Of a stretch of DNA of 64,000 bases, positions 15,893-55,161 are shown piece by piece. The notes beneath the pieces are model-generated. The model ran no database searches, was not told where the DNA came from, and was given only the letters and a program-made list of their open reading frames with translations. Source of the DNA: Octopus vulgaris (lineage: Eukaryota); NCBI GenBank assembly GCA_951406725.2, contig OX597837.1, forward strand, positions 21,576,001-21,640,000, given 5' to 3'. Position 1 is the first letter of the stretch. Each line of letters starts with the position of its first letter. Made by a program: the position numbers and the translations under genes.

Positions 15893-15943
15893 AGCTTCTA
15901 CAGGACTAGAACTGTTTCATTCAAAAGAAATCATCAGGAAGCT
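15893..15943 (-). ncRNA. Minimal type I hammerhead ribozyme (PLE family A, left arm)
   Basis: Sense strand: agcttc-CTGATGA-tttcttttgaat-GAAA-cagttctagtcct-GTA^gaagct. Confidence 0.85.
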
Positions 15944-16435
15944 AGGTGACAAGAATAGTTTTGGCATTTATACATTTAGGCAGGTTTAAAGGGGTGAAGG
16001 TGGGGGACTTTTTGGGGTAGGCATGGCGCAAACTATCATTCTTAGGGGAGTGGTCAAAGGAATCAGTGATAAAGTAGATAAAAGAATAAATAGAATAATA
16101 GAGTTTAGGTAAATAAGGAGACTCTCACTTATACATATATATATATACATACATATACATACAACACACAATATATATATACACATATATATATACAAGA
16201 CCCCAGTTGAACCGTCCAACCCATGCTAGCATGGAAAACGGACGCTAAATGATGATGATGATGATGATGATGATACATACACATACACACATACATCCAT
16301 ATGCACCCATTTACATACATCTACGTACACACCCATACTCATACATACACACATATATCTACACATATATATAAAAATAAATATAAAAACAAATATAAAA
16401 GGATATACACCCCCATACACACACGCTCATATATC

Positions 16436-16467
<32 letters not shown>

Positions 16468-17146
16468 TATATATATATACACACATATATATATATATAT
16501 ATATACATACATATATACATACACATACATATGCATATACATGCACACACATACACACACATTTCTTCCCTTATTTTAATTTTATTTTTATTTTGACCTC
16601 CACCAACCAGGCCGGCACTGAAGTAGGGTCCTCCCAAAGGATCTAGCCTAGCTGGCCTAAAGAAACCATTTATTGCCCCTCTCCCTTCCTTTCTATCTTT
16701 CTTCCCACTGATACGAACACAAACACTCACACTCATACACAGATGCACGTGTTATATTCATACATACATAAGTGTACCGACTTTCACATAAACGTACACA
16801 CAAAACCACATATATAAATGTACTTCAGTACACATAAACACACACGAACATCTGCCCGCATATATAGACGCATATGCCTATATACAGACATTTGTGCATA
16901 TAAACATACATACGCATCCATATGCCTTTAAGTACATATTAGCACACATGCACGCATACACGTGTACATAAAAGCATACCTACATATATCTACCTACACA
17001 CATACATATACATACATGCACGTATATACACATACGTACACGTACCTACAAATTCATATCTACACGCATACACATACATACATCTACACACACACAGAAG
17101 ACTAGTCCATATATATACACAAATATATATATATACACATATATAC

Positions 17147-17177
<31 letters not shown>

Positions 17178-17447
17178 CACGCACGCATATACCTACATAT
17201 ACATACACATATATACTTACACCAGTCATATACATACCTACATACACATACATCCATATATCTATACATATACATACACATGCACATACTAATACACATA
17301 CGCATATCTACGCACACACATCTATCTACATATATAAAAAAAGAAACCCAACAAGTCCATACATATACACATATATACCCATACATATATACATATATAT
17401 ACACATACACATATATACACACATGTATATATATATATATATATATA

Positions 17448-19233
17448 TGAAAAAACAAGTCAAAAATAGAAAATGCTAAGATAATTTTATAGTGAATCTT
17501 TCAGTACCGGTTTCGGTCATTTTGAGACCTTTTCAACTGTAACGATTAAATAATTAAATTTAGAAAAATTAGAAGAAAAGTTTTTTTAAAGGAATATTTC
17601 TATAGTAGTGTTCAGATATGAGTGGCATTCTGCCTTTCTCTGACTCCCTTGTTTGCACTTGTGTGTTCGGGGTCGTTGTGAGTTCTTGGTAGGGTAGGAG
17701 AAGAAGAAGGAGGCTGATGTGGAGAGGGGGTGGGAGTGGGAAAATCTGGGGGAGCCCTGTTGGTCGTATTTTGCATGGTATTTTGCATGTAGGTATTAGG
17801 GACTTTAATTATTTTGTCTGTAGCTATCTTGCATGCGTTGCTTATTTTTTCACTTTTGTGGATCTTATGTATACCGTAGAATTGGCTAGTTTTACTTGTG
17901 AAATTGGTCATATAATCATATTCTTTGTCAGTGAGCCCTGCTTTGTATGGGTTTAATATGGATTTTAGTTCCCTCATTATTTTTTGTTGACTGTAGTTTT
18001 GTGTCTTCCAGCATAGAAAGTACCAAAGTTATGTAAAATGTCGTATCCATTAAGACAACAGCACTCCCTTTATCGGCCTCTTTGATTGTTATTGTTTTAT
18101 CTTGTTTTAATTTGTTCAACTCAGCCCATTCTTTTTTGCTGAAGTTTGGTTTGTGTTTTTGTTTGTGCATATGTTGATATGGGTAATTAGATATGTGGTC
18201 ACAGAAATCATCAAGTGTTTTGTTCTTACCTTTCGAGGGGGTGTAGTTACTCCTATTTCTGGCTAACGATTCGTCCTCGTTGTATTTATCGTATAGCTCC
18301 TCAGTAAGTCTTAATTTTCTGCAGAATTCTGCGATGTCTTCTTTCATTTCGTTGTAGTTGAGGAGCTGTGGGGTGGGTGTAAACTTGAGTCCTTTGGAAA
18401 GTATGTTTATTTGGTTTGCTGTTAATTCCTTGTGAGTTAGATTGATAATTTTTATTACTTTTGGTTCCTCCTGCTTGTTTGGTGCTATCTTGTGTCTCTG
18501 TGTTTGCGTATTGGGTCTAAAAAATGAATGCGGTGGTTGGGACGGTAGCTATTATATAGTTGTTCTTTGTTGATGTGGGGTCTCCTGTTGTGATTTATGG
18601 TGTGTGTTCTTGGAACAGTATTGAGGAGAGCATCCCGATATCCCATATTCGGGTGTGGTGTTCTAGGAGGCCTTCGTTGGTAATCATTGTAAGTGGTGTG
18701 GGTTTGTTGTGCATGGTTGTTTAACCGGTTGATGGGACGGAGATTTCGTTGGTAACTCTTTTGGGTGGGGATAAGGTTGCAGTATCTATGCTGTGGGTGT
18801 TGATTTATCCTTTCTCTGCTTGAAGTGGGGGTATTCCTGATATTGTAACGCTGGCTGCTTACAGAGTTAGGGTTAGGTCCTGTATTCTTTTTTTGAAAGT
18901 AGTGAAGGTTCCGATTTTTAGACAGGTGTGTATCGGTGTTTGGGTGTTGTTTTGGTTTTCTTATTTTCTGGAAAGGGTTGTTGGAGGCGTGCTCTGTTTG
19001 AAAGACGGCTTCATAGTCTGAGAACCAAATGGCGCTTTTCTCCCAGCGTTGGAGAGATTTTAGTTCTTCTTTTTCACAGTCCTCTTTCCATAGTTTGGAG
19101 AACTTCTCTTGATCTGAGCCTTGAGTCATTTTGCGAATTTCTTCGTTGATATCTTCATCGGTGGATTTTATTTTGTCCTCATTCGTTTGGGCCCTCAATT
19201 TCAGAAGTTCTATTGGGCCCTCAATTTCAGAAG

Positions 19234-19238
<5 letters not shown>
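17448..19238 (-). mobile_element. Internally deleted PLE B (upstream ORF, RT N-terminus, 3' end with ribozyme) between (TA)n runs
   Basis: RT frame reads INLTHKEL..ILSKGLKFTPTP...NFSKKEWAELNKLKQDKTITIKEADKGSAVVLMD, then a frameshifted YGIHKIHKS; about 26-bp tandem duplication at the 5' junction (19186-19238). Confidence 0.85.
17502..17540 (-). ncRNA. Minimal hammerhead ribozyme with U3-A8 variant core (PLE B)
   Basis: Sense strand: acag-TTGAAAA-ggtc tcaaaat gacc-GAAA-ccg-GTA^ctg. Confidence 0.7.
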
Positions 19239-19270
<32 letters not shown>

Positions 19271-19497
19271 CATATACATACACATACATCCGTACGCACA
19301 CCCATATACATACATACATCCACACAGAGGTATACAGGCATATACACACATATATATATACACACAGATATATATATATAGTTGAGTACAGAAATTCGGG
19401 GTGAGTACTTGATAATTATAAGCACCTGTGTATACCGTTAGGTGGTGTAGGTGGTGGAGTAAATTGATCAAAATAAAAACATGATGCCAAGGATTCA

Positions 19498-19575
19498 GCG
19501 GTACATATGTTTCGGGCCTTTATTAGACAGATTTATAACAATGCATAATGTATGTCTGTGGCCTTCTTCAGCCGC
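19498..19575 (-). ncRNA. Type I hammerhead ribozyme with extended stem II (PLE C)
   Basis: Sense strand: gcgg-CTGAAGA-aggccacaga...tctgtctaataaaggccc-GAAA-catat-GTA^ccgc. Confidence 0.8.
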
Positions 19576-21271
19576 GCACAACAACTTCCACAAGGACATG
19601 TGTTACATCAAAAATTCTTGGTTGGGGATGCAAATCCTTTCATTCGCGTACGACATAATGCGGCAACAGCATAGAATTGAAGCGTCCATCTCTTTCTTCT
19701 CTCAATGTAGAATGAGGAAATTTGGATGTTGAAGTAATGTAAATAAATTAATAAATAAATACATATATAGACGTGAAGGGACCTGGTAATAAGAGTAAAT
19801 AGGGGTAAAGATGGAGGGGCGAGAATTCAGGATGAAGGATAAAAAATATATAAAAAGTGTAAGTATAGAAAAATATAAAAATGTAGAGTATAAAGATATA
19901 AAGAGATATAAAGGGGATATAAAGAATATAAAAAATATAAATGAATATAAAGTTATAAAGTAAAAATAGAAATAAAAGTAAAAATAGAAATAAAAATAAA
20001 AATAGGAATAAAAATGATAAAAAATGTAAAAAATATAAGGATAAGGGATGTATAGTGGTTACAGACCAAACATGGTGGTCAGGAAAATGACAAAATTTAG
20101 TTGTAGAAGTTTTGGGTGTCAATAAATCAACAGGGGCGTCTGGGGACCTAGTGTATTGTAAATCAGAGCTGTTGAGCAGCTAATCTAGTTCCTTGAATTA
20201 AGTGGTCATCTTGTACATACATACCAGCATGGATACATACACCCATATACACGCGCACATACACAGCTCCAAGCATATAAGCATACATACGTACTCACGT
20301 GTAAACATATACAGAAACACATATACACCCACACACATGTGCATATATACATACATACAACGGAATATGCGTATATATACACGGACATTATACATGTACA
20401 TATATATATATACATATATACACACACACACACATATACACATACACACATGCATACATATATGCACATGTATACCTATACATACATACGCATATACACA
20501 CACCCATATATACATACGTATGTCCATCCTTACATACACAGATGCCCACACATACAGGTTTAGATATAAGATATTAAAAGATGTATATAAGAACGCATGT
20601 AAAGAATCACGCACTCACGTCTACACGTACGCGCACACACGGCTGTGTGTCCATATGTGCGTGTACATATACACTTACATACACACACACAGAGACATAC
20701 GCGCGTATAGGTATAGCTATAAGATATTAAAAGATGTATACAAATATGTGTAAACATATGCATATAAGAAATCTGCGAAAACATGTAAGAAATTTTAAAA
20801 AAAGTTATTAAAGAAAATTATTAAGGAAGAGTAACGGGGTATGCACATCCAGACGTAGATGTTTACTCGTACATATGTACACATATGTATACGTATACAT
20901 ACGTACACGGACGCTCGTATAATCATAAAGCGGATCCATAGGTAAGTAAATAAGGGATAAGCAAAAAAAAATAGACATATATAGAGATATAAAGCGATAA
21001 GTTAGGGGTAAGAATGAGGGTAAGAATAAAAATTAGAAATAAAAGTAAGAAATGCAATATAAAATAAGAAATACAATATAAAAGTTAGAAATAAAATATA
21101 AAAATTATAAGAACTATAAGAATTAAAATAAGGAATGAAAATAAAAATAAGAATAAAGGTAAAGCGAAATAGAATAGGATAAAGTAAAATAAAAATATAA
21201 TCGGGTAAAGCTTAACATGAGACGAAGGAAAAAATAAAAGGTGGTTGAAAGTGTAAAGTTAAAGGTGTGTG

Positions 21272-24072
21272 CTAAAGGTGACCACGTAGGGGTGGGCGGG
21301 GGGAACTGAAAATTGGAAGGGTGGGAAGTGGAGTTTGGCGGTGTGCGCTCAACATCCGAGTTAGAAATGTGAAAAGGTATAGATATAGGGAAATAAAGAG
21401 TCTAGATAGGAAGAATGTAGGTGTAGGAGAAGAAATATATAGGGAAAAAAAACATATATGGGAGACAAAATGTGTATATATAGGAGGAAGATGCAGGAAA
21501 ATATATATGCACATACACACACACATATATATATATACACATATACATACACATATATGTATATACATATACACGCACATATAGGAAAGCGGGATGCGCT
21601 GGAGCCGACAGGTTGCACCGGGTGGGAGGAAATTGCCTAAGTATTTGAAAGTATTAATAAGTTTGTGTATACAGGATGGTTTGAACTCTGACCTTTTGTT
21701 AATAAGATTGTGTTTGTCTTTGAATTTCAAGATATTCAGGAGTTCTACACAACATAGTTGGCATCCTGCTCTATTATTTAAATAAGGTGCAGCTGATCCG
21801 ATGATGGACCACCTGAGTTTGAAACTTATGCATTTGTCTTTTAATTCCCAAATTTTTTTAGAAAGAGAGGTGCTGTTAGCTTTATGTCTGTGTTTCAGCA
21901 AGGACCGGTGGTTGTAGTATCTGGATTTCCAGGAGGTTGAGCAACCTATGTAGGTGAGTGTGTTAAACTGGGTACTCACCTCACATGAATATATTACGTT
22001 TTTCGCCCTACACTCGGATGCACATATGCAGTTGCAGTGCATTGTATTACTTGGTCGCGTGCTGTTAATCCCAGGCGGAGGTGTTGCATTACGTGTGGGG
22101 GCGTTGATATCCTCCTGGTTGTTGATGGGTGTGGTATTGCCTCTGTTGTGTTGGCGGGTGTTATTACTAACTGTTTGGGTAATATGGCTGCCAGTCTGAT
22201 TATATTGTCTACTATCTGGATGAGGGGGGTTCTGTTGGTCGCTATAGCTTGCTCTTGATCTAGCTGTTCTAATATTAATATAGTTATGTTTAGCTATGAG
22301 GCAGCTCATGTTGGGCAGGGTAGAGTAGGAAATCCTAATGGTTTTGTTGGAGAAGATACTTCTATACTTATGGGTGGGTGGGAAGTTGTTGGAAATGATA
22401 GAGAATATTCTCTTACATAATTTACCCCTAACTGCTAAGTTGTATGGTATGTTGAACCATATATATTTGCGTAATCTACTATTATCGCTTCTATTTCTCC
22501 TAATAGGATCTATATTGCTCTCGTCGGGAGGGTTACTATTGTTTGCTATTCTATTAGTTCGCCTATTTCCTATACGTTGTTTAGAATTTAAATTAGAATT
22601 ATTGTTAGCATGAGTTGAGTGCGGAGTTCGATTATAATTGGGAGTTTTACGGCCGACGGACGTTCCTGGGTGGTCTACATATGATATTCTCTGGTTATAC
22701 CCTGCACTATAGAGAGCCTGGTTGTAGTGTTGTGCGTGATTATTGAAAATTTCTCTGTTAGAGGATAGTTTTGTAAGTCTGTCTGAGATGGCTTGGACCG
22801 TGGTGCTAATTATACAGGGTGGATGGTTGGAAGAGGTGTGGATGTATTTGGTTGTTTCTTCGGGTTTCCTATACGGGTGGTGAAGGTGCTTATTCAAGTC
22901 TAACGTAACATCTAAGAAGTTTACTATTTTAGTATTGGTCATAAATTCTAGTTTAAGATTGAAGGATTTGAAAAAAAGCCTGATCTTTTTCCTAATTCTT
23001 TCTAGTTTACTCCTATTGTTGGTGGGGTATATGAAGAGAGCGTCATCCCTGTATAGACCCCCCTGAAGATCCAGTACCTCGGAGAAAAGCTTCTTGAGCA
23101 GGTAGGCCCTGACCAAGTCAGTCACCTGAGCTGAATCGCTCGAGCCCATAGCCACATCAAAATTTTCGGGGGTATCGGATCTGGTCCAAAGCCTACCGTC
23201 GAATTCTATTATGGTTTTTCTAGCTAATAGTATTATGTCAATTTTTTCTCTGTCTATGAGCGAAAGGCTGCGAGCATATATAAGGGATTTGTTAAGTAAG
23301 ATGGGGGATATACTGGCGTAGTAGTTAGCTATGTCGAACTGGATGAATGAGTAGTTGGGTCTGTTGGTGATTGTGTTAAACCATTCTAGCACATCGTCGG
23401 TGTCAATCCATAGTTGGAGTGGGATGTGGGGTTTGATGCGTGGGATCACCATGTCCAGGATAGTCTTACTAAGTCTGCCGATATCCGATTTAGTCGGACA
23501 GATTAATCGTACTCCTACATTATCCGGGAAGTCTTTCTTATGGTCCTTACTAGTAATTTTGGGTACCTGTGGTTTGATCGGTTCCGTTCTGTCCAGGAGG
23601 TCTAATTTGGTCATAACTTCCTTGATTTAGTAGTTAATTTCCTTAAGGTTATCCGTAGAAGTAGTTTTATATTTTTTGCTAAGTTCCCTCATGATGAGCG
23701 ATTTGTAGGTTTGGTAGTCCAACCTATACCAGTTCCCAGTCTTGTCGGCGGGTATGATAAGACTATCATCGTTCCTAAGTGAATGCAGGAAATCTTTAAG
23801 GCTCCTTAAGTGGGTGTTGGAAATGGTCTTATGCTTACTAATGTTGATGTTGGTAATGAGGTCGATTAAGGCTTTTTCAAAATTTTCCAGTGCGTAGTTA
23901 GAGGGTGGGTTTCTTCTGCTTTTAAATATTTTCCTGTGTGCTATTTCTTCTTGGTTAGAGTTGGGGTTGCTTTTCCCTGGGTTATCGAAATGGTAGGCTG
24001 CCCACCTAATTCTTCTAATAAAGTCTGTGGTCCGGTGGATGAGGGTCGTCGTGTAAGTTTTGTCGGAGTGGT
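21272..24072 (-). pseudogene. PLE C RT+GIY-YIG ORF, slightly 5'-truncated, one in-frame stop
   Basis: DFIRRIRW..IFKSRRNPP..PADKTGNWY upstream of a TAA at 23627-23629, in frame with FDIANYYASI, FDVAMGSSDSAQ, GLYRDD, NFLDVTL, CNC..C..VIY..YIG..CQLC..E..LINKRSE..CIH; the frame runs on into microsatellite. Confidence 0.9.
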
Positions 24073-24795
24073 GTGCGTGTATTTACATGCATGTATATAT
24101 ATGTATATATATGTGTATATATATGTATGTGGATATATATATATATATATACGCTTGTGTGTTTATGTATATGTAGGTATGTAGATGTATGTGTATGTAT
24201 GTAGGTATATATACATATGTGTAAATAGGTATACATGTATATGTTTATATGTATGTATCCGTCTGTATGATGGGTAATTGCACGTATATATATTTATTAT
24301 TTATTATTTGAGTATGCATGTATGTATATATGTATATGTTTGTATGCATGTATACATATGTATATGCATACACATACACATCTATATATACATACATGCA
24401 TACAAACATATACATATATACATACATGCATACTCAAATAATAAATAATAAATATATATACGTGCAATTACCCATCATACAGACGGATACATACATATAA
24501 ACATACACATGTATACCTATTTACACATATGTATATATACCTACATACATACACATACATACCTACATATACATAAACACACAAGCGTATATATATATAT
24601 ATATCCACATACATATATATACACATATATATACATATATATACACGCACACACATACATATGTATATTCATACCTACACCCATACATATCTATACATGT
24701 GTACATATACAATATGTGAATAGTCTTAGGAGAGAAGGTAATTGGGGGTGCTGAGGGAACGGTGGGGGTGGGGGGGTGTTGTGGATGGGGTGTCG

Positions 24796-25242
24796 TCAAT
24801 CGGGTTGCCGGGTGGGTCTGTAGTTTTTGTAGTTTGCATAAATTTTGTGCATACAATTTGGGGAGTGTTCCGAGATCTTGTTGAGGAGAGGGCTTTTGGC
24901 GAACAAGATCTCCAGGCTCTCAGAAATGCAAAGGTCACAGCAGGTATGGCCTCCTGTGTACGAACGCGCCCTCTGTAGTAGTCTCCACTTGAAGGGAATG
25001 GAGTTCCTTTTAAGGTACCAGATGTGGGCGGCGAGAGTAGTTTGGTTAGATTTGTCAGGTCGCCGGAACGAATGTGTGTGGGCGTACCAACGGGTCTTAA
25101 AGCTGTTTGACGTCATTCCGATGTACGATTTTCTTTTATCATCGGGGCCTGATCGTACCTCGCATGTGTAGACGAGGTCCTTCTGTAGGCAGTTGTTGTT
25201 GAGGGGGCAAGTGGTTTTATCAGGGCAGTTGCAATTGCTTTC
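24796..25242 (-). pseudogene. 5'-truncated PLE: Cys-rich linker plus GIY-YIG endonuclease only (probably family A)
   Basis: ESNCNCPDKTTCPLNNNCLQKDLVYTCEV...SYIGMTSNSFKTRWYAHTHSF...LAAHIWYLK...CDLCISE...LLNKISE..CMH. Confidence 0.88.
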
Positions 25243-25372
25243 GGCCAGCTAGGCTAGATCCCTTGGGAGGACCCTACTTCAGCGCCGGCCTGGTTGGTGG
25301 AGGTCAAAATAAAAATAAAAATAAATATAAAAATAAAATTAAAATAAGGGAAGAAATGTGTGTGTATGTATA

Positions 25373-25410
<38 letters not shown>

Positions 25411-25860
25411 TGTGTGCATGAATGTGTGTATATATATAGATATGTGAGCGTGTGTGTATGGGGGTGTGTATCCTCTTTTATATTTGTTTTTATATTTATT
25501 TATTTTTATGTGTGTAGATGTGTATGTATGGGTATGGGTGTGTACGTAGATGTATGTAAATGGGTGCATATGTACATGTGTATATGTATATATATATATA
25601 TGTATATATATATGTATGTATATATATATGTGTGTGTGTGTATATGTATATGTATGTATATATATATATGTATAAGTGAGAGTCTCCTTATTTACCTAAA
25701 CTCTATTATTCTATTTATTCTTTTATCTACTTTATCACTGATTCCTTTGACCACTCCCCTAAGAATGATAGTTTGCGCCATGCCTACCCCAAAAAGTCCC
25801 CCACCACCACCCCTTTAAACCTACCTAAATGTATAAATGCCAAAACTATTATTGTCACCT

Positions 25861-25911
25861 AGCTTCCTGATGATTTCTTTTGAATGAAACAGTTCTAGTC
25901 CTGTAGAAGCT
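25861..25911 (+). ncRNA. Minimal type I hammerhead ribozyme (PLE family A, right arm)
   Basis: agcttc CTGATGA tttcttttgaat GAAA cag ttctagtc ct GTA gaagct; perfect 6-bp stem I; AATAAA just downstream. Confidence 0.87.
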
Positions 25912-25990
25912 CCTTCTATAAAATAAATTAATTTACTCTATGTATTGAGTACCTTATTTACTGTGGTTAACCCCGACTCAACCCGGGACC

Positions 25991-26045
<55 letters not shown>

Positions 26046-31216: not shown

Positions 31217-31261
31217 CTAGAAAGAAGGAAATGTTAAATGTTAGTGCAAAACAGTTGAAAA

Positions 31262-33560: not shown

Positions 33561-33595
<35 letters not shown>

Positions 33596-44272: not shown

Positions 44273-44325
<53 letters not shown>

Positions 44326-44788: not shown

Positions 44789-44842
<54 letters not shown>

Positions 44843-45350
44843 CATACATACACATACCTACACATACACACATACACATACACACACATACATACACATA
44901 TATATACATACACAAACATATATACACACACATATATATACATACACACATACACACATACATACGTATACATACATACATACATCTATACATCCATACT
45001 TACATGCATTTATACGCATACACACACCCATCTATATATATGTATATATATATATATATATATATACACACTCACACATACATATACAAATCTACGCACA
45101 CACATACATACATACACGTATACGCATACACGCACATACACATATACATGCGTACCCATACACGTGCACACACGCACGCGCATCCATATAAATACACACA
45201 CACACATATATATATACACGTGTGCAAGCATACATACATACTCATACGCGCACACATACTTACAAATACATATATGCACACACTTACACACATATATATA
45301 CATACACATATACATGCATACATACATATATGCATACATACACACACGCA

Positions 45351-45402
<52 letters not shown>

Positions 45403-46026
45403 TATACATACATAGACATACATACACATACATACACATACACATACGTACACACACATATACACATATATATATATACATATATATATATATACACATA
45501 CACGCATACATATATACACATATACATACATATACATACACACACACATACATATATACATATACACTGATACACATACCCATACATACACATGCATATA
45601 CTTATATTACTACATACTCACATATATAGACATATATACATATACACACATACATATATACATGTACATACACATACGCATGCATATATATATATATATA
45701 CACACACATATATACACATACATATATATATATATATATATACATACGTACACACACACACACACATACATATACACATATACATGTATACATACGCAAA
45801 AATGATACGCATATATACACATACACACACACAGACAGATGCATATACATACATATATATATATATAAACTACATATCTATATAAATACAAACATAATAC
45901 ACATATACACACACATATATATACATTCATGCATATACATATACAAGTATACATACACAAACATACACACACACGCGCACACATACATATACACACACAC
46001 ATATACAAATACATACATACACACAT

Positions 46027-46073
<47 letters not shown>

Positions 46074-46582
46074 CATGTACACATATACATATGTATATAT
46101 ATATCAACAAGGGAGGGTAAAGTTAATTAGTTATTAATCAATTTCATCAAGTGTTCAGTATGTAAAGGGACCATTATTATTTTGAGTAAACAATGTTAGA
46201 GGGAAAAAAATTCTCTAAGTAGTGGAAGAGGCTAAAAAACTTTATTGGCTGCTATTTCTAGAAAGTTTAGTATGTGGCAAAGTAATTTATTTTATTTTCC
46301 TAAGCCCTAATTATATAATATTTTATACATACATACACATACATAAGCACATACATTTACACATACATATGCATATACATATATACACATATACATACAA
46401 ACACATATACACATATACACACACACACACATACAAGCACATACATATATATATACATATATATACACATATATACCTTGACCACTCCCCCAAGTATGAT
46501 ATTTTGCGCTATGCCTACCCCCAAAAAGTCCCCCACCACCACTCCTCTAAATGTATAAATGCTAATACAATTCTTGTTAAAT

Positions 46583-46633
46583 AGCTTCCTGAAGATTTCT
46601 CTTGAATGAAACAGTACTAGTCCTGTAGAAGCT
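46583..46633 (+). ncRNA. Minimal type I hammerhead ribozyme (element D, right)
   Basis: agcttc CTGAAGA tttctcttgaat GAAA cagtactagtcct GTA gaagct. Confidence 0.85.
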
Positions 46634-47708
46634 CCTTCTATATAATAAATATATATATATACATATATACGACAGGCTTCTTTCAGTTTCCGTCTACCAA
46701 ATCCACTCACAAGGCTTTGGTCGGCCTGAGGCTATAGTAGAAGATACTTGCCCAAGGTGCCACGCAGTGGGACTGAACCTGGAACCATGTGGTTGGTAAA
46801 CAAGCTACTTACCACACAGCCACCCTGCGCCTATCTTGAACATTTAAAGAAATTTAACATAGACATTCTTCAGAAGTATGAAAGTTAGCCGTTTGCAAAT
46901 AGCATTTTCAACTGTTACAAGTAGTGTTTTAAAAAGAAGTTGTATTAACAGGTTCAATGAAGTCGCTTGGGGGTGGGCCAAATGGCTTCATTTCATTTAT
47001 CATTTTATCTGATTCACCCTTTCCATCCATTTTTTTTTTTTGCTTTCTGTACCCACCATGTGCTGTCCCCTCTGGGTTAGGTCCCATGTGGTTAATAAAG
47101 AAAGAGAGTTCCTTGTCTTGTTTCTCTAAAGGACTCCCAGCATGCAGTTTTGCTCTATCGTGTTAACGCTGGCCTTTCTTCAAGGTGCTTCTTACTGTCT
47201 GCTGGTGCCAAATACTCAGGTAACTGGATTGATGCATCCCTGTGGTTAATATTGGTGGTCTACTTCGTGTCTCTATTGCCCTCCGAGTGATTGCTGATGT
47301 ATGCATGGGTTTGATTTGTCATTGTGTCAGGCTCCTCGACTCCACAGGCCTCCATGGCTTTTCTTGCCACCTGAATGCTGGTCACTTCACACGTCATTTG
47401 AACTCAGAATGAAATGGCAGACGAAATACCACTAAGCAATTCGCCCTGCATGCTAACGTTTATGCCAGCCTGCCTTATATATATATATATATATATATCA
47501 TGTGAAATAGAAAGATGAATAATCTTGTAGTAGATTAATCAAAAGTTTAACCGATACCTTAGTAGCAAAAATCACAGCAGTAAAACAGCACGGTTGGAGG
47601 TACAACCATATGGTGTTGCAACCGTGCGTTGGTGCGGATAATTGAAATTAGAACATTATTGGTGAATTGAAGAAATGGAGCTGAACGCAGATTGAACAGA
47701 AATCGTTT

Positions 47709-47802
47709 TATTTCATTCTACACGTGTTTCGAAAGGCACAAATTACCAAAATCCGATGGAATAATGGGACCATATTGTGTCTTTCTCTTCAGGAAGAAAA
47801 TA
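47709..47802 (-). ncRNA. Type I hammerhead ribozyme (PLE E, copy 1)
   Basis: Sense strand: tattttcttc-CTGAAGA-gaaagacac...tgtgcctttc-GAAA-cacgt-GTA^gaatgaaata. Confidence 0.85.
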
Positions 47803-48385
47803 GGAAATCCGTTGGAAAAACAAAAACAGAACAGAGGCGGAGCAAAAACAAATCGAACTATGCTCCTAAGAGCCCATGGCGAAACTGTTTATCAGTGTAT
47901 GTTGAGAACCGGTGGCTGAAGAATTCAACGGGTCAGGCATCGGTCAATCATGTGGATGAGGGGGCGTAGATGTTCTTTGTGACCGAGAATAAAGTTCTAA
48001 CTATTTAAGGAATATTGGATGTTTTATAAGGGGCGAGAAAAAATCTACTTAGAGACGTGTGTGTGTGTATACTGTTCTATATACGTGTGTGTTGGCGTAG
48101 GGGTAGAAAACATTTTTTGTGTACGTGTGTGCGTTTGATCGTTCGGCTGTCAGTGGCTACTGCCGTGATGACCGTTGGGTGGCAGAAAAAAATATATATC
48201 ATGTTTTATGTGTGTGTGTGTTCTCATTTAAGCCTGCCTTGTCAAGGAAACCCCCGCTGTGAAAAAACCAAGCCCCGTTTGTCTTACAGGAGTAATTCCC
48301 CTTGCAGTGGTTAATCGTAGATATCTTAAAGGCTATTTCAGAATTTGTTACCAAGGGCTATGGGTGCCGGTATTATTTATAAACG

Positions 48386-51073
48386 CTATTTAAAAGCCAG
48401 ATAAGTGTAACGCCGCCAATGGGGGCATCGAAAAGCCGACTGTAAAAGCCCGTTTACCATCCGGCCTCTAGCAAACAAAATATGGAAGAGTTCGGAGACA
48501 CAAAGGTTGCACTGCCTTCTGCCCCTATCAAATGGGAGGGCCACCGACAAAATTGACCATTCCAGCCTGTAGCTTAAGTTCGTATCCTTCAGTCGCCATA
48601 TTAGCTTACTGAGTCCCGTGGTCTGGCGCTTGTTCATGTCCCGAAAAGTTGCGTAATGGTTGGAGACACGCAAAGACAATCTTGAGGATGAGGCCCCTAC
48701 ATAAGTGAAGACATCTGAGTCCGTGTAAACCTTGCATTGGTAGACGGCGTTTTTGATCTTGGAGTTCGCCGACGTGAATCTAATTCTGCTAGGATTAGTT
48801 TCTGAAATTAGAACTGCGTTCCTGTCACTATATTCGTTCCGAGACCTGCAGCCGCTTACTACTCTATTTTCCACTACGTCACTATTAACTATAGGAATAA
48901 CCCCTGATTCTCCACTATCTATCAAAGTGCTGTCATTGCTACTGCCCGTGGTGCTGCTATTGCGGGAAATGATGCTGGGGATGCTATTGGGGCTCTCTAC
49001 CCTACTCCCATTGTTACCGTCAACCACAACACCCCTATTTATAACTATACCCCTAGTGGGTACTCCCTGGCTGGAGCTGAGATTATGTGTCACTGTACTG
49101 GCTCTCATATCATTATTACTACTATAATTATTCCTACTGAGCATTAAACCGGGAGCGGAAGAGGCTGTGCCTCCGGAAAAAGGTGATAGGGTCTTAGTAA
49201 GTAGCCTATTATTATGGGAGGCGATTATCTGGGCGAGGTTTTTAGTGTTGGAGAAAGCTATCCTAACTTTATGCGAGTTAACCGTGGAGTAATATTTGGA
49301 ATTTCTGGGGAAGTTATTGGCGATGGCTTGTCTAAACATGAGGGGGAGGTTAGTTCTAATCTGCTTACCAAAGGGGATTACAAACCATATATGCTTATTC
49401 CTATCAGTGTGGTGGATCGGGACGCCAGCTCTCGCATTCGGGTGGGTGATTCTCGGATGAATGACGGGTCTTGGGTTAGTGTAAGACCTCCCGGACCGAT
49501 AATTATCCTTGTTCGCTAAATTAAATGCGGGAGCGACTACCCCGGCATCCACCGCGCTCCCGTCCTTACTTAAAATGTTAATGTTATTATATACGGCCCT
49601 ATCCTGATGACCGAATGATGGCATCGGAAGGGCCGGATCAATATAAATTACCTTCTGCCTATAACCGGCCTTGGATAGTGCGGCGTTATAAAATTCCGCC
49701 TTCTGCATAAAAATATCGGCACTGGCGGACAAGCCAGACAATCTTAGAGAGATGTTTTTAACCAAATTGTCTGTTACGGTTTTGGCATGATTTGAGAAGA
49801 CACTGACATACTTCAAATTAGTGGAAGGCTTATGGTAAGGGCAGTATGAGTCGCTATTAAGGTTAAGTGTAACGTCTAGGAAATTGGCCTTGGTGAGTTC
49901 ATTATCAAAAACTATACTCATGCCCATTCTATTAAAAAACCTAGCTAACCTGCTCTTAGTTTTCTGCACTATTCTGTTCGTGGTGTTTTGCAGGTAAAAC
50001 AGACAATCGTCACGATACAGGCCGCCCGCGATCTCCGGGAATTGGTCGGACAATTCGTAGAGAATATATATTCCGACCAAATCGGCTATCTGCGCACTAT
50101 CCGAACTACCCATAGGCACATCAAATTCATTGGGAGTATCTTTACGGATCCACAACTTATTATCAAACTTAATAAACGATTTCCTGGCAACTAAAATGAT
50201 ATCTATCTCTTCTCTGGTGAGGCCAGCCTTGTTGTGAGCATGCCAGAGGGCCTTATTTAGCACACTAGGGTTAATCGAGGGGTAGAAGCTGGCGATATCA
50301 AACTGAATGAACCTAGTACGGTTCTTATTGGGGATGGAAGAGAACCACTTCACTACCTGCGAGGAGTTGGCCCAGAGGCTGAGCTTCAGCTTGTTTACTA
50401 AACTAGGGATATATTTATCTAAAATGTACTTACTGATTATCCCGATATCAGATCTAGCAGGGCATATGAGTCTTAGCGCTGGGTTGGTGTGGAAGTTCGG
50501 TTTATGGTCCTTCACTATAAATCTGGGTTGCTTAGGGCTAAGCGGCTGAGTTCTCATTTGAATTCGGTGTTTAAATATTATTTCCTTAATTTCCAAGTTT
50601 ACCTTCCTCAGGGTACTCCAATTGGTTTTTCTATAATTTTTCTTGATCTCTTTACCGAGTAAATCTAGGTACTGCTTAATGGGCATCTTGTATGTGTTCC
50701 TGGTCTTGTCGGACTGGACCAGGACTCCGTCCGTTCTATTAATGTCCTTGGTAATTTTATCTAGGTATCTGAGGTGGGCATTTCTCCTGGGTGACTTCCT
50801 GAACTTAATCTTTCTAACTATGTCCCACAAGTCGTCCTCAAACTTCTTCAGTCTTGGGTTAGGTGGCGGCGTATCCAATGTTTTAAAAAGCCGGCCGTAT
50901 TCGGACGATGCTGTTGTCCGGTTCGATTTTAGATCTTCGTTCTCGTGGAAGAAAATGAGCCATCTTATCCGGTTTATGAATGCGTTGGTTTTACAAACCA
51001 ACTCCTTAAGGAAGGCATCCTTTGGTGGTATAGGAATATCCTTAAGGGACGCATCAATCTCGAACAACTCCAT
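48386..51073 (-). CDS. Intact PLE polyprotein (reverse transcriptase + C-terminal GIY-YIG endonuclease), 895 aa
   Basis: SDKT, FDIASFYPSI, FDVPMGSSDSAQIADLVG, GLYRDD, NFLDVTL, YHKP..Y..SNH; endonuclease AVY..YVG..R..H..W..CNLC.SE..CPH. Confidence 0.95.
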   Translation of the reverse strand: MELFEIDASLKDIPIPPKDAFLKELVCKTNAFINRIRWLIFFHENEDLKSNRTTASSEYGRLFKTLDTPPPNPRLKKFEDDLWDIVRKIKFRKSPRRNAHLRYLDKITKDINRTDGVLVQSDKTRNTYKMPIKQYLDLLGKEIKKNYRKTNWSTLRKVNLEIKEIIFKHRIQMRTQPLSPKQPRFIVKDHKPNFHTNPALRLICPARSDIGIISKYILDKYIPSLVNKLKLSLWANSSQVVKWFSSIPNKNRTRFIQFDIASFYPSINPSVLNKALWHAHNKAGLTREEIDIILVARKSFIKFDNKLWIRKDTPNEFDVPMGSSDSAQIADLVGIYILYELSDQFPEIAGGLYRDDCLFYLQNTTNRIVQKTKSRLARFFNRMGMSIVFDNELTKANFLDVTLNLNSDSYCPYHKPSTNLKYVSVFSNHAKTVTDNLVKNISLRLSGLSASADIFMQKAEFYNAALSKAGYRQKVIYIDPALPMPSFGHQDRAVYNNINILSKDGSAVDAGVVAPAFNLANKDNYRSGRSYTNPRPVIHPRITHPNARAGVPIHHTDRNKHIWFVIPFGKQIRTNLPLMFRQAIANNFPRNSKYYSTVNSHKVRIAFSNTKNLAQIIASHNNRLLTKTLSPFSGGTASSAPGLMLSRNNYSSNNDMRASTVTHNLSSSQGVPTRGIVINRGVVVDGNNGSRVESPNSIPSIISRNSSTTGSSNDSTLIDSGESGVIPIVNSDVVENRVVSGCRSRNEYSDRNAVLISETNPSRIRFTSANSKIKNAVYQCKVYTDSDVFTYVGASSSRLSLRVSNHYATFRDMNKRQTTGLSKLIWRLKDTNLSYRLEWSILSVALPFDRGRRQCNLCVSELFHILFARGRMVNGLLQSAFRCPHWRRYTYLAFK

Positions 51074-51330
51074 TATTGGTATCGGTTAAAGTAGCAGTTT
51101 CTTGACGAAGCGGTATGTATCATGTGAAATAGAAAGATGAATAATCTTGTAGTAGATTAATCAAAAGTTTAACCGATACCTTAGTAGCAAAAATCACAGC
51201 AGTAAAACAGCACGGTTGGAGGTACAACCATATGGTGTTGCAACCGTGCGTTGGTGCGGATAATTGAAATTAGAACATTATTGGTGAATTGAAGAAATGG
51301 AGCTGAACGCAGATTGAACAGAAATCGTTT

Positions 51331-51424
51331 TATTTCATTCTACACGTGTTTCGAAAGGCACAAATTACCAAAATCCGATGGAATAATGGGACCATATTGT
51401 GTCTTTCTCTTCAGGAAGAAAATA
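51331..51424 (-). ncRNA. Type I hammerhead ribozyme (PLE E, copy 2)
   Basis: Identical motif 3622 bp from copy 1. Confidence 0.85.
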
Positions 51425-52007
51425 GGAAATCCGTTGGAAAAACAAAAACAGAACAGAGGCGGAGCAAAAACAAATCGAACTATGCTCCTAAGAGCCCATG
51501 GCGAAACTGTTTATCAGTGTATGTTGAGAACCGGTGGCTGAAGAATTCAACGGGTCAGGCATCGGTCAATCATGTGGGTGAGGGGGCGTAGATGTTCTTT
51601 GTGACCGAGAATAAAGTTCTAACTATTTAAGGAATATTGGATGTTTTATAAGGGGCGAGAAAAAATCTACTTAGAGACGTGTGTGTGTGTATACTGTTCT
51701 ATATACGTGTGTGTTGGCGTAGGGGTAGAAAACATTTTTTGTGTACGTGTGTGCGTTTGATCGTTCGGCTGTCAGTGGCTACTGCCGTGATGACCGTTGG
51801 GTGGCAGAAAAAAATATATATCATGTTTTATGTGTGTGTGTGTTCTCATTTAAGCCTGCCTTGTCAAGGAAACCCCCGCTGTGAAAAAACCAAGCCCCGT
51901 TTGTCTTACAGGAGTAATTCCCCTTGCAGTGGTTAATCGTAGATATCTTAAAGGCTATTTCAGAATTTGTTACCAAGGGCTATGGGTGCCGGTATTATTT
52001 ATAAACG

Positions 52008-54509
52008 CTATTTAAAAGCCAGATAAGTGTAACGCCGCCAATGGGGGCATCGAAAAGCCGACTGTAAAAGCCCGTTTACCATCCGGCCTCTAGCAAACAA
52101 AATATGGAAGAGTTCGGAGACACAAAGGTTGCACTGCCTTCTGCCCCTATCAAATGGGAGGGCCACCGACAAAATTGACCATTCCAGCCTGTAGCTTAAG
52201 TTCGTATCCTTCAGTCGCCATATTAGCTTACTGAGTCCCGTGGTCTGGCGCTTGTTCATGTCCCGAAAAGTTGCGTAATGGTTGGAGACACGCAAAGACA
52301 ATCTTGAGGATGAGGCCCCTACATAAGTGAAGACATCTGAGTCCGTGTAAACCTTGCATTGGTAGACGGCGTTTTTGATCTTGGAGTTCGCCGACGTGAA
52401 TCTAATTCTGCTAGGATTAGTTTCTGAAATTAGAACTGCGTTCCTGTCACTATATTCGTTCCGAGACCTGCAGCCGCTTACTACTCTATTTTCCACTACG
52501 TCACTATTAACTATAGGAATAACCCCTGATTCTCCACTATCTATCAAAGTGCTGTCATTGCTACTGCCCGTGGTGCTGCTATTGCGGGAAATGATGCTGG
52601 GGATGCTATTGGGGCTCTCTACCCTACTCCCATTGTTACCGTCAACCACAACACCCCTATTTATAACTATACCCCTAGTGGGTACTCCCTGGCTGGAGCT
52701 GAGATTATGTGTCACTGTACTGGCTCTCATATCATTATTACTACTATAATTATTCCTACTGAGCATTAAACCGGGAGCGGAAGAGGCTGTGCCTCCGGAA
52801 AAAGGTGATAGGGTCTTAGTAAGTAGCCTATTATTATGGGAGGCGATTATCTGGGCGAGGTTTTTAGTGTTGGAGAAAGCTATCCTAACTTTATGCGAGT
52901 TAACCGTGGAGTAATATTTGGAATTTCTGGGGAAGTTATTGGCGATGGCTTGTCTAAACATGAGGGGGAGGTTAGTTCTAATCTGCTTACCAAAGGGGAT
53001 TACAAACCATATATGCTTATTCCTATCAGTGTGGTGGATCGGGACGCCAGCTCTCGCATTCGGGTGGGTGATTCTCGGATGAATGACGGGTCTTGGGTTA
53101 GTGTAAGACCTCCCGGACCGATAATTATCCTTGTTCGCTAAATTAAATGCGGGAGCGACTACCCCGGCATCCACCGCGCTCCCGTCCTTACTTAAAATGT
53201 TAATGTTATTATATACGGCCCTATCCTGATGACCGAATGATGGCATCGGAAGGGCCGGATCAATATAAATTACCTTCTGCCTATAACCGGCCTTGGATAG
53301 TGCGGCGTTATAAAATTCCGCCTTCTGCATAAAAATATCGGCACTGGCGGACAAGCCAGACAATCTTAGAGAGATGTTTTTAACCAAATTGTCTGTTACG
53401 GTTTTGGCATGATTTGAGAAGACACTGACATACTTCAAATTAGTGGAAGGCTTATGGTAAGGGCAGTATGAGTCGCTATTAAGGTTAAGTGTAACGTCTA
53501 GGAAATTGGCCTTGGTGAGTTCATTATCAAAAACTATACTCATGCCCATTCTATTAAAAAACCTAGCTAACCTGCTCTTAGTTTTCTGCACTATTCTGTT
53601 CGTGGTGTTTTGCAGGTAAAACAGACAATCGTCACGATACAGGCCGCCCGCGATCTCCGGGAATTGGTCGGACAATTCGTAGAGAATATATATTCCGACC
53701 AAATCGGCTATCTGCGCACTATCCGAACTACCCATAGGCACATCAAATTCATTGGGAGTATCTTTACGGATCCACAACTTATTATCAAACTTAATAAACG
53801 ATTTCCTGGCAACTAAAATGATATCTATCTCTTCTCTGGTGAGGCCAGCCTTGTTGTGAGCATGCCAGAGGGCCTTATTTAGCACACTAGGGTTAATCGA
53901 GGGGTAGAAGCTGGCGATATCAAACTGAATGAACCTAGTACGGTTCTTATTGGGGATGGAAGAGAACCACTTCACTACCTGCGAGGAGTTGGCCCAGAGG
54001 CTGAGCTTCAGCTTGTTTACTAAACTAGGGATATATTTATCTAAAATGTACTTACTGATTATCCCGATATCAGATCTAGCAGGGCATATGAGTCTTAGCG
54101 CTGGGTTGGTGTGGAAGTTCGGTTTATGGTCCTTCACTATAAATCTGGGTTGCTTAGGGCTAAGCGGCTGAGTTCTCATTTGAATTCGGTGTTTAAATAT
54201 TATTTCCTTAATTTCCAAGTTTACCTTCCTCAGGGTACTCCAATTGGTTTTTCTATAATTTTTCTTGATCTCTTTACCGAGTAAATCTAGGTACTGCTTA
54301 ATGGGCATCTTGTATGTGTTCCTGGTCTTGTCGGACTGGACCAGGACTCCGTCCGTTCTATTAATGTCCTTGGTAATTTTATCTAGGTATCTGAGGTGGG
54401 CATTTCTCCTGGGTGACTTCCTGAACTTAATCTTTCTAACTATGTCCCACAAGTCGTCCTCAAACTTCTTCAGTCTTGGGTTAGGTGGCGGCGTATCCAA
54501 TGTTTTAAA
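52008..54509 (-). CDS. 5'-truncated second copy of the PLE E ORF
   Basis: Same protein as 48386-51073 from about residue 64 onward; cut off by the inverted pseudo-LTR. Confidence 0.88.
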   Translation of the reverse strand, partial: FKTLDTPPPNPRLKKFEDDLWDIVRKIKFRKSPRRNAHLRYLDKITKDINRTDGVLVQSDKTRNTYKMPIKQYLDLLGKEIKKNYRKTNWSTLRKVNLEIKEIIFKHRIQMRTQPLSPKQPRFIVKDHKPNFHTNPALRLICPARSDIGIISKYILDKYIPSLVNKLKLSLWANSSQVVKWFSSIPNKNRTRFIQFDIASFYPSINPSVLNKALWHAHNKAGLTREEIDIILVARKSFIKFDNKLWIRKDTPNEFDVPMGSSDSAQIADLVGIYILYELSDQFPEIAGGLYRDDCLFYLQNTTNRIVQKTKSRLARFFNRMGMSIVFDNELTKANFLDVTLNLNSDSYCPYHKPSTNLKYVSVFSNHAKTVTDNLVKNISLRLSGLSASADIFMQKAEFYNAALSKAGYRQKVIYIDPALPMPSFGHQDRAVYNNINILSKDGSAVDAGVVAPAFNLANKDNYRSGRSYTNPRPVIHPRITHPNARAGVPIHHTDRNKHIWFVIPFGKQIRTNLPLMFRQAIANNFPRNSKYYSTVNSHKVRIAFSNTKNLAQIIASHNNRLLTKTLSPFSGGTASSAPGLMLSRNNYSSNNDMRASTVTHNLSSSQGVPTRGIVINRGVVVDGNNGSRVESPNSIPSIISRNSSTTGSSNDSTLIDSGESGVIPIVNSDVVENRVVSGCRSRNEYSDRNAVLISETNPSRIRFTSANSKIKNAVYQCKVYTDSDVFTYVGASSSRLSLRVSNHYATFRDMNKRQTTGLSKLIWRLKDTNLSYRLEWSILSVALPFDRGRRQCNLCVSELFHILFARGRMVNGLLQSAFRCPHWRRYTYLAFK

Positions 54510-54978
54510 ATGTTTTTTTCACAGCGGGGGGTTTCCTTGACAAGGCAGGCTTAAATGAGAACACACACACACATAAAACATGATATATATTTTTTTCTGC
54601 CACCCAACGGTCATCACGGCAGTAGCCACTGACAGCCGAACGATCAAACGCACACACGTACACAAAAATGTTTTCTACCCCTACGCCAACACACACGTAT
54701 ATAGAACAGTATACACACACACACGTCTCTAAGTAGATTTTTTCTCGCCCCTTATAAAACATCCAATATTCCTTAAATAGTTAGAACTTTATTCTCGGTC
54801 ACAAAGAACATCTACGCCCCCTCATCCACATGATTGACCGATGCCTGACCCGTTGAATTCTTCAGCCACCGGTTCTCAACATACACTGATAAACAGTTTC
54901 GCCATGGGCTCTTAGGAGCATAGTTCGATTTGTTTTTGCTCCGCCTCTGTTCTGTTTTTGTTTTTCCAACGGATTTCC

Positions 54979-55072
54979 TATTTTCTTCCTGAAGAGAAAG
55001 ACACAATATGGTCCCATTATTCCATCGGATTTTGGTAATTTGTGCCTTTCGAAACACGTGTAGAATGAAATA
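54979..55072 (+). ncRNA. Type I hammerhead ribozyme (PLE E, inverted pseudo-LTR)
   Basis: CTGAAGA 54989-54995, GAAA 55051-55054, cleavage triplet GTA 55060-55062. Confidence 0.85.

Positions 55073-55127: not shown

Positions 55128-55161
<34 letters not shown>

What the first reader, a model, noticed from the sequence alone, without database searches (positions are those of the whole stretch)
15893..55072. Nine hammerhead ribozymes in four structural families mark a microsatellite-targeted Penelope-like retroelement system
Seen: nine complete type-I hammerhead folds (stem I / CUGANGA-type core / stem II / GAAA / stem III / GUA) at 15893(-), 17502(-), 19498(-), 25861(+), 43818(-), 46583(+), 47709(-), 51331(-) and 54979(+). 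Each lies in the terminal repeat of a PLE or PLE derivative bordered by (TA)n or mixed TA/CA microsatellite. All cleave at GUA and have a very short stem III with a palindromic centre (acacgtgt, acatatgt, accggt, actagt/ctag). Known: PLE pseudo-LTRs carry minimal hammerheads, and palindromic stem III allows cleavage as dimers. Inference: four co-occurring lineages keep the same ribozyme logic with unrelated stems, while stem II ranges from 3-4 bp to ~55-nt extensions. I do not know whether these particular families have been described.
Basis: partly seen in the sequence, partly recalled or inferred. Interest (0 to 1): 0.85.

Follow-up and report, generated by a model that had tools for sequence, protein, structure and literature searches.

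The report
Hammerhead-bearing Penelope transposons targeting TA repeats
The nine hammerhead-ribozyme folds are real and sit in the ends of four separate, recently copied Penelope-like jumping genes that insert into TATATA repeats, a known kind of element; the one new twist is that one very active lineage has lost the zinc-finger linker proposed to aim it at those repeats yet its copies still end in them.

Summary
All nine type-I hammerhead folds are present (9 strict hits; 0 in 200 shuffles). They are not one system but the pLTRs of four independent Penelope-like families: three Hydra-clade (A, C, D) and one Neptune-type (B). They cluster because each inserts into (TA)n; B and C sit inside the microsatellite-rich 3' UTR of an A copy. 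Hydra elements with hammerheads and (TA)n targets, one of them from an octopus, are described (Craig 2021); these four families were not found there. In the D lineage the core is conserved (1/583 differences against 798/4293 in flanks) and the long stem II covaries. Copy ends lie downstream of the predicted cut and none at it, so inserted cDNA likely came from uncut or re-ligated RNA; cleavage is untested. New variant: D and its relatives lack the CxCx5C zinc linker carried by other Hydra proteins and proposed to direct microsatellite targeting, yet 27 of 28 terminal D copies end in (TA)n, 118 of 150 scored copies are identical at that segment, and the protein is under purifying selection. Known kind, modest new twist.

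The parts
15878..26015 (-). Family A (Hydra) insertion: inverted pLTR with tail, 5'-truncated EN, long microsatellite-rich 3' UTR carrying nested C/E and B elements, sense pLTR; sits in the TA/CA tract of a two-part repeat (SINE-like, label inferred)
15893..15943 (-). Hammerhead A1 (CUGAUGA; U.U at the base of stem II; 4-bp stem III, loop with CUAG); predicted cut 15899
25861..25911 (+). Hammerhead A1 in the inverted pLTR; predicted cut 25905
24796..25248 (-). Family A linker (CNCPDKTTC = CxCx5C) plus GIY-YIG-type EN fragment
19375..24082 (-). Family C/E (Hydra) copy: ORF 21630-24082 broken by a stop and small lesions (an uninterrupted frame is in L175), 2-kb 3' UTR, pLTR ending at (TA)n
19498..19575 (-). 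Hammerhead C (CUGAAGA; about 51-nt stem II region; stem III ACAUAUGU); predicted cut 19502
17445..19236 (-). Family B (Neptune-type) internally deleted copy: end of ORF1, start of ORF2 (GLKF, DKG), joined to the pLTR
17502..17539 (-). Hammerhead B (UUGAAAA core, U3/A8; 4-bp stem II; stem III ACCGGU); predicted cut 17505
43704..46650 (-). Family A, second subfamily: ORF-less 5'-truncated copy (3' UTR and pLTR with tail) plus a 177-bp inverted pLTR, 100% identical
43818..43868 (-). Hammerhead A2 (CUGAAGA; loop with ACUAGU); predicted cut 43824
46583..46633 (+). Hammerhead A2 in the inverted pLTR; predicted cut 46627
47492..55132 (-). Family D (Hydra, linker-less) insertion: partial tandem of period 3622 bp (2 differences in 3397 bp) plus a 622-bp inverted pLTR; (TA)n on both sides
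48386..51073 (-). Intact 895-aa D ORF: RIRW(35), DKT(122), YRDD(353), Cys-free replacement motif NAVLISE..RIRF..NSKIKN (752-776), EN VYQC(777)/YVG(791), CxxC-E-N-CxH
52008..54510 (-). 5'-truncated upstream D ORF
47709..47800 (-). Hammerhead D (CUGAAGA; 55-nt extended stem II; stem III ACACGUGU); predicted cut 47719
51331..51422 (-). Hammerhead D of the internal pLTR; predicted cut 51341, 268 nt before the ATG
54979..55072 (+). Hammerhead D in the inverted pLTR; predicted cut 55062

Best explanation
The nine folds are type-I hammerhead motifs in the pseudo-LTRs of four independent Penelope-like families (three Hydra-clade, one Neptune-type) whose copies end in (TA)n and nest in one another, and each family likely spreads by nicking (TA)n with its own GIY-YIG nuclease and starting reverse transcription at two fixed sites downstream of the ribozyme on RNA that is likely uncut or re-ligated. 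The ribozymes are likely weak and conditional (dimer- or protein-assisted for B, C, D; possibly monomeric for A) and would process a minority of tandem read-through transcripts rather than set the ends of inserted copies. In the D lineage the four-cysteine linker is absent and replaced by a conserved cysteine-free motif, so (TA)n choice there would come from the nuclease, its C-terminal CxxC/CxH site, the replacement motif or AT microhomology. Shown: folds, family membership by motifs, pLTR position, (TA)n junctions, two discrete 3' ends, core conservation, linker absence. Inferred: cleavage, dimers, priming mechanism, action in cis.
For: Hydra motifs (RW, DKT/DKS, CxxC-E-N-CxH) in A, C/E and D; Neptune-type GLKF, DKG and CX4CxxC in B, with RVT_1 and GIY-YIG Pfam hits. 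The D model's best folds are telomerase RTs. A (TA)4+ run follows within 330 nt of the cut in A 34/35, B 30/30, C 36/36, D 40/40, D2 27/28. Of 30 D loci picked by protein, not by ends, 2 run into the next unit and 27 of 28 end in (TA)n, 14 at +61..+67 and 13 at +219..+227, none at the cut; background 20/1478 windows. 5' ends of 30 long D copies: 19 extend upstream across the cut, 11 start downstream, none at it. Core 1/583 against flank 798/4293 differences in 53 of 65 flank-retrieved rows; 4 stem II pairs change on both sides among 11 variants. Stem III self-duplexes of -7.0 to -15.2 kcal/mol for the window's five variants; B, C, D form no hairpin alone. D1 against D2: dN/dS 0.08 over 434 RT codons; EN dN 0.18 with dS saturated. 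An Anolis PLE behaves alike in vitro: two internal start sites, hammerhead cleavage not needed and protein-assisted (PMC11167929).
Against: No cleavage data. Copies are not independent events, and most were chosen as best matches (40 scored of 1178-1934 first-look candidates per search), which favours young, intact copies. Only 4 of 19 pairs covary, which is not above the shuffle for that measure (130/500). B's 30/30 is inflated because its own tail holds ATATATAT. The descriptor was tuned on the nine. Stem I is only 3-4 bp in B, C and D and the ribozyme fold is not the minimum-energy fold (gap 0.3-6.4 kcal/mol). D RNA could be inserted by linker-bearing A or E proteins. Clade assignment rests on motifs and on a tree without the published reference proteins.
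Confidence: 0.8

Rival explanations
1. Rolling circle: hammerheads cut tandem transcripts efficiently to unit length, the units circularise, and the RT starts inside the circle and runs more than once round, giving tails and tandems.
For: Tandems of period about 3.62 kb: the window and an array of more than three units on C1. All 3' ends lie past the cut, as a circle would allow. Proposed in PMC4209133.
Against: Uncut read-through RNA explains the same ends. 17 of 22 non-tandem 5' ends fall within about 280 nt around the ribozyme and thin out about 100 nt upstream of the cut, more like a linear RNA starting there. In PMC11167929 unprocessed RNA was the main substrate.
Confidence: 0.2
2. D-lineage RNAs are inserted in trans by linker-bearing Hydra proteins (A, E or others), so the linker loss says nothing about targeting.
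For: Linker-bearing Hydra families were recently copied in the same genome. Several D copies share an open frame that stops 231 codons from the end, so defective D templates may get copied.
Against: D RT and EN are under strong purifying selection; 16 of 150 scored copies keep the whole 899-codon frame and 118 are identical over the replacement motif and EN start; the EN region models with pLDDT near 90; pLTRs of A, C and D share no sequence outside the core.
Confidence: 0.12
3. One cooperative system: four lineages share ribozyme logic and travel or act together.
For: A, C, B and D pieces often lie in the same 3-10 kb locus.
Against: Each has its own ORF, pLTR and 3' ends; in other loci the A distance from EN to the next unique UTR block is 1.5-2.3 kb (L123, L125, L140), and the window's 8 kb is that plus 6.5 kb of nested C/E and B. 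Palindromes differ, so cross-family stem III dimers are not expected.
Confidence: 0.04
4. The folds are relics or structural protein-binding signals that no longer cleave.
For: No copy end at the cut; weak stems; min-HHRs cleaved poorly in vitro (PMC4209133).
Against: Catalytic core letters stay fixed while synonymous sites diverge by dS 0.8; B keeps the compensated U3/A8 pair; D3/D4 change only N7 and the cut letter (GUC) in the core.
Confidence: 0.08

Closest known systems
Hydra clade of Penelope-like elements (Craig et al. 2021, PMC8557442), including Hydra-1_Obim
   Same: A, C/E, D: single RT + C-terminal EN ORF, RW and DKT motifs, CxxC/CxH around E and N, hammerhead in the pLTR with stem III of the AC..GU type, U.U at the base of stem II (A, as in many Penelope_HM), (TA)n insertion, tandem and inverted ends with a tail.
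   Different: None of the three matches Hydra-1_Obim by eye (N-terminus, hammerhead). Units exceed the usual <3 kb (D 3.6 kb; A and C/E with 2-3 kb microsatellite-rich 3' UTRs). C and D have 51-55 nt stem II regions against short loops in the published table. D lacks the CxCX5C linker present in all 9 Hydra proteins of supplementary fig. S7.
Neptune clade PLEs
   Same: B: GxKF, DKG, CX4CxxC linker with a long spacer before the EN, hammerhead in the pLTR, (TA)n ends.
   Different: U3/A8 core (reported for Schistosoma PLEs, PMC4209133); an upstream 437-codon ORF1 overlaps the RT frame at a U UUU UUA heptamer. ORF1 with a frameshift is noted for some PLE types in the fig. 1 legend of PMC8557442; I could not see for which.
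Minimal / palindromic type-I hammerheads of metazoan PLEs (Cervera and De la Pena 2014, PMC4209133)
   Same: Short stem I, palindromic stem III predicted to need a dimer, extra base at the foot of stem II, family-specific stems.
   Different: Family A has a 4-bp stem III able to close in a monomer; C and D have long stem II extensions.
Poseidon element PAc of Anolis (Frangieh et al. 2024, PMC11167929)
   Same: Two discrete 3' ends (tail / no tail) downstream of the hammerhead; no ends at the cut; AT-rich target.
   Different: PAc prefers ATT sites and its hammerhead overlaps the ORF start; here the targets are (TA)n arrays and the D cut is 268 nt before the ATG.
Non-LTR retrozymes (PMC7229834; bioRxiv 10.64898/2026.07.22.740005)
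   Same: Type-I hammerheads in animal repeats, linked to PLEs.
   Different: Retrozymes are short non-coding tandem units; all four families here trace to coding elements.

Membership tests
Type-I hammerhead ribozyme | Core C3UGANGA9 / GAAA / UH, or the U3-A8 variant, with three helices and helix I open | tested here: met
   variant described in PMC4209133
Type-I hammerhead ribozyme | Core conserved and stems covarying among diverged copies | tested here: met
   D lineage. A, B, C copies are too alike for covariation; A1/A2 differ only at N7 and in loops
Type-I hammerhead ribozyme | Rfam gathering score | tested here: not met
   best 22.9 bits against 52; these models are not built on minimal PLE variants (my knowledge)
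Type-I hammerhead ribozyme | Mg2+-dependent self-cleavage | not testable with these tools
   needs in vitro assay
Penelope-like element | Telomerase-like RT with GIY-YIG-type EN | tested here: met
   (top Foldseek hits are TERTs, E 4.5e-9)
Penelope-like element | Partial tandem pLTRs, inverted 5'-truncated copy, optional tail | tested here: met
Hydra clade (A, C/E, D) | RWK-type motif in place of GxKF; DKT in place of DKG | tested here: met
   RIRW in all three; DKT
Hydra clade (A, C/E, D) | No CCHH; CxxC and CxH either side of E and N | tested here: met
Hydra clade (A, C/E) | CxCX5C linker | tested here: met
   A CNCPDKTTC, E CNCICASEC
Hydra clade (D lineage) | CxCX5C linker | tested here: not met
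   D, D2, the L098 relative, P0109 and P0110 carry a Cys-free motif instead; so D is filed as a Hydra-derived variant
Hydra clade (A, C/E, D) | (TA)n insertion and hammerhead in pLTR | tested here: met
Hydra clade (A, C/E, D) | Placement in an RT tree with the published Hydra references | tested here: inconclusive
   quick tree of 50 rows without named references; D and D2 group with E, P0001, P0002, P0010 (SH-aLRT 97); B on a very long branch
Neptune clade (B) | GxKF, DKG, CX2-5CxxC linker, C-terminal GIY-YIG with CCHH-type Cys/His | tested here: met
   pattern like the Neptune rows of fig. S7
Neptune clade (B) | Placement in an RT tree with Neptune and Nematis references | not tested
   no reference sequences held
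Non-LTR retrozyme | Short non-coding tandem unit with a hammerhead in each | tested here: not met
   all four pLTRs join coding ORFs

The most novel reading that the evidence does not exclude
An octopus-associated Hydra sublineage (D, D2 and older relatives) has replaced the four-cysteine zinc linker by a conserved 25-residue cysteine-free motif, is among the most recently active PLEs of this genome, and targets (TA)n with its own protein. It would be a natural knockout showing that the linker is not what directs microsatellite targeting, with a near-identical intact 895-aa protein and linker-bearing sister families in one genome for direct comparison.
Probability: 0.6. Interest if true: 0.5.

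Novelty: new variant of a known kind. Interest (0 to 1): 0.36.

Why it matters
The ribozymes themselves extend a known pattern. The value lies in two open questions named in PMC8557442 (section 15): what PLE hammerheads do, and what causes microsatellite insertion bias. This genome offers young, intact families of two clades with discrete ends that map relative to the cut, and a linker-less lineage next to linker-bearing relatives, which makes both questions testable in the in vitro system of PMC11167929. It also shows that these elements escape Pfam and Rfam thresholds and that relatives are misnamed as host genes (P0109 as a dyrk1 kinase).

Tried and rejected
First descriptor too strict, no hits. 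Rfam whole-window scan showed microsatellite-driven miRNA hits and a 5S rRNA, no hammerhead in the rows shown. Pfam finds nothing meaningful on the Hydra ORFs or on B ORF1. Test for 5' ends at the cut site: negative. Idea that A is a non-autonomous derivative: rejected. Idea that B is the 3' end of C's element or that A+C+B travel together: rejected. Sequencing runs: no RNA holder on record; 19 runs hold the D unit, 14 guessed RNA. Contigs of four such runs cover D and four cover B ORF1/ORF2 without a joint at the TTTTTTAG site; they cannot show expression, ends or cleavage and are not used as evidence. Word-seeded protein searches with the D C-terminus found nothing; the profile search did. 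The AlphaFold model gives pLDDT only 50-61 for the replacement motif, so its fold is unknown. The careful tree did not finish; the quick tree is reported. The weak descriptor hit at 60434 is treated as chance. Look-ups of earlier scan findings were empty. Two papers were not held.


Full report
Observation. The nine folds are in the sequence at the stated places. A stem I / core / stem II / GAAA / stem III / UH descriptor gave 10 hits in 64 kb, nine of them GUA sites with at least 9 bp; 200 local dinucleotide shuffles gave a mean of 0.095 relaxed and no strict hit. The descriptor was loosened after the first version found none, so the control shows only that such folds are rare by chance. Rfam scores are below gathering. 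There are four sequence families: A (15893, 25861, 43818, 46583), B (17502), C (19498), D (47709, 51331, 54979). B has the U3/A8 core. A has a 4-bp stem III with a palindromic loop centre; B, C and D have palindromes that form no hairpin alone but pair with a second copy at -7.0 to -10.3 kcal/mol (A: -12.8 and -15.2).

Host. The window is G000:C24:21576001-21640000 of a 2.8-Gb genome. Close protein relatives carry Octopus and Argonauta source names, so the host is likely an octopus (inference).

What carries the ribozymes. D is a partial tandem of period 3622 bp, with 2 differences in 3397 bp, plus a 622-bp inverted pLTR, flanked by (TA)n; its 895-aa ORF is intact, has RIRW, DKT, YRDD and an EN with CxxC-E-N-CxH, and its model (mean pLDDT 79) matches telomerase RTs best. 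C is the pLTR of the RT-EN element at 21630-24082: the same 3' UTR precedes C in most of 30 loci and L175 holds an uninterrupted frame. A is the pLTR of a third family: in L195, L197, L204, L207, L209 and L210 hammerhead and tail run directly into an ORF with RWR and DKT, and the EN fragment at 24796-25248 belongs to it. These motifs define the Hydra clade (PMC8557442 section 11). B precedes and follows a canonical ORF with GLKF, DKG, a CX4CxxC linker and RVT_1 / GIY-YIG hits (L171, L172), which reads as Neptune-type by motifs only. First-look candidates in G000 were 1605 (D), 1178 (A), 1793 (B), 1934 (C) and 1446 (D2); only 40 were scored per search and these are not copy numbers.

Why they cluster. 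15878-26015 is one A insertion whose microsatellite-rich 3' UTR took up C/E (4.7 kb) and a deleted B copy (1.8 kb); without them the spacing matches other A loci. Both A insertions of the window split a two-part repeat that is intact at 56172-56570. None of 20 long A loci repeats the window's composite.

Targets and ends. A (TA)4+ run follows the cut within 330 nt in 34/35 A, 30/30 B, 36/36 C, 40/40 D and 27/28 D2 contexts, at two distances for A, C, D and D2 (B's own tail holds a TA run, so its figure is inflated). In 30 D loci chosen by protein, 2 run on into the next unit, 27 end in (TA)n (14 at +61 to +67, 13 at +219 to +227) and 1 breaks off at +5 in AT-rich DNA; the background is 20 of 1478 windows. 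Of 30 long D copies, 8 run through as tandems, 11 begin upstream of the cut, 11 downstream, none at it. Inserted cDNA therefore spans the cut site, which needs uncut or re-ligated RNA (inference). This fits PMC11167929, where RT starts at two internal sites and hammerhead mutants insert normally.

Are the folds under selection? For the D lineage, copies retrieved by the downstream flank alone (53 of 65 rows kept; 12 dropped as 5'-truncated or unrelated over the ribozyme) differ from the window at 1 of 583 core positions and 798 of 4293 flank positions; rows are not independent. Among 11 variants 90% of cells pair and 4 stem II pairs change on both sides; the number of such pairs is not above the shuffle (130/500), the other covariation measures are (0/500), and slid controls pair at 37-51%. 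A, B and C copies in hand are too alike for this test.

The new twist. Other Hydra-type proteins carry a four-cysteine linker before the EN: 69 of 71 long homologues by a loose pattern, 80 of 83 with an EN by a stricter one, the three misses showing three or four of the cysteines by eye, and all 9 Hydra rows of supplementary fig. S7. D has none of it; a motif NAVLISE.NP.RIRF.S.NSKI[KR]N stands in its place and is kept in D2, in an older relative at 50% identity (L098) and in P0109, P0110 (named Octopus sinensis) and, more loosely, P0108, P0111, P0112, P0120. In a quick tree D and D2 fall with linker-bearing E, P0001 and P0002 (support 97), so the loss is likely derived. D1 against D2 gives dN/dS 0.08 in the RT (434 codons) and dN 0.18 with saturated dS in the EN; 118 of 150 scored copies are identical over the motif and EN start and 16 keep the whole 899-codon frame. 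PMC8557442 links the linker to (TA)n insertion but also notes that Chlamys elements target microsatellites without it, so the idea was already in doubt; a loss within the Hydra clade was not found in my searches. Trans-mobilisation by A or E proteins is not excluded.

What is known. PMC8557442: read abstract, sections 11, 12, 15, passages, and supplement parts 2, 7, 58 of 59 plus search rows; it lists 27 Hydra families, 26 with (TA)n, their hammerheads and Hydra-1_Obim; figures not seen, and unread supplement parts may bear on the linker claim. PMC4209133 and PMC11167929: parts 1-2 of 4. bioRxiv 10.64898/2026.07.22.740005: part 1 of 5. PMC7229834, PMC6962438, PMC12602865: passages. Work on PLE hammerheads cleaving as dimers (Lunse et al.) and on Terminons is recalled only; neither was held. 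Dfam and Repbase could not be searched, so these families may be deposited there.

Verdict. Observation confirmed; interpretation partly right. These are new families of known PLE clades with known kinds of hammerhead. The linker-less, recently active D lineage is a new variant worth a specialist's look. Interest 0.36.

Noticed in passing
window 18485-18548 (-); L266-L295: Family B has two overlapping frames: a 437-codon ORF1 and the RT-EN frame at -1, with no ATG before the GLKF motif. 28 of 30 loci could be read; all 28 have T TTT TTA in the ORF1 frame and 27 keep the offset (one fused by a 1-base insertion). Suggests -1 ribosomal frameshifting; no stable hairpin follows (-0.7 kcal/mol), and TTTTTTAG could also be a splice acceptor.
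   Followed up: partly
L070, L165, L090, L128, L139, L054, L103, L116, L120, L123, L134, L135, L150, L167: More than ten further hammerhead families in flanking DNA of fetched loci, most with palindromic stem III (CGAUCG, UGGCCA, CAAUUG, AUCGAU) and cut triplets GUA, GUC, GUU, AUA or AUC; the genome holds many more PLE families than the four here.
   Followed up: no
window 16720-17440, 44200-46470, 20200-21600: Kilobase-long mixed TA/CA/TG tracts are part of the 3' UTRs of families A and C/E and recur in other copies; they act as landing sites for other PLEs.
   Followed up: partly
G000 copies (e.g. C1:145186726, C2:146016653, C8:12918358, C9:43273329): Several D copies share an open frame of exactly 231 codons, which may mark a defective sublineage that is still being copied.
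   Followed up: no
L182-L183 (G000:C1:119516000-119531000): Head-to-tail D array with at least two complete 899-codon frames, period 3624-3625 bp.
   Followed up: partly
window 24088-24649: A 560-bp near-perfect palindrome (93.7%) between the A EN fragment and the C/E ORF start; probably an inversion made during insertion.
   Followed up: no
window 26222-26340 (-): Single 5S rRNA-like copy, 103.6 bits, with pairing kept; gene, pseudogene or head of a 5S-derived repeat.
   Followed up: no
window 34302-34799 (-): Exon of a SET-domain methyltransferase related to SETD3 / Rubisco LSMT (E 9e-6); likely the host gene of this region.
   Followed up: partly
window 12921-13273, 56172-56570, 57254-57623, 63418-63966: A two-part dispersed repeat joined by a TA/CA tract, many copies; both A insertions split such a copy. 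SINE label is recalled, not tested.
   Followed up: partly
window 19187-19239: A 26-bp direct duplication at the 5' end of the B copy; the same insertion appears in one contig of run X5.
   Followed up: no
P0109, P0110, P0010: PLE fragments annotated as host proteins (dyrk1 kinase, GATA zinc-finger protein 14-like) in public sets.
   Followed up: partly
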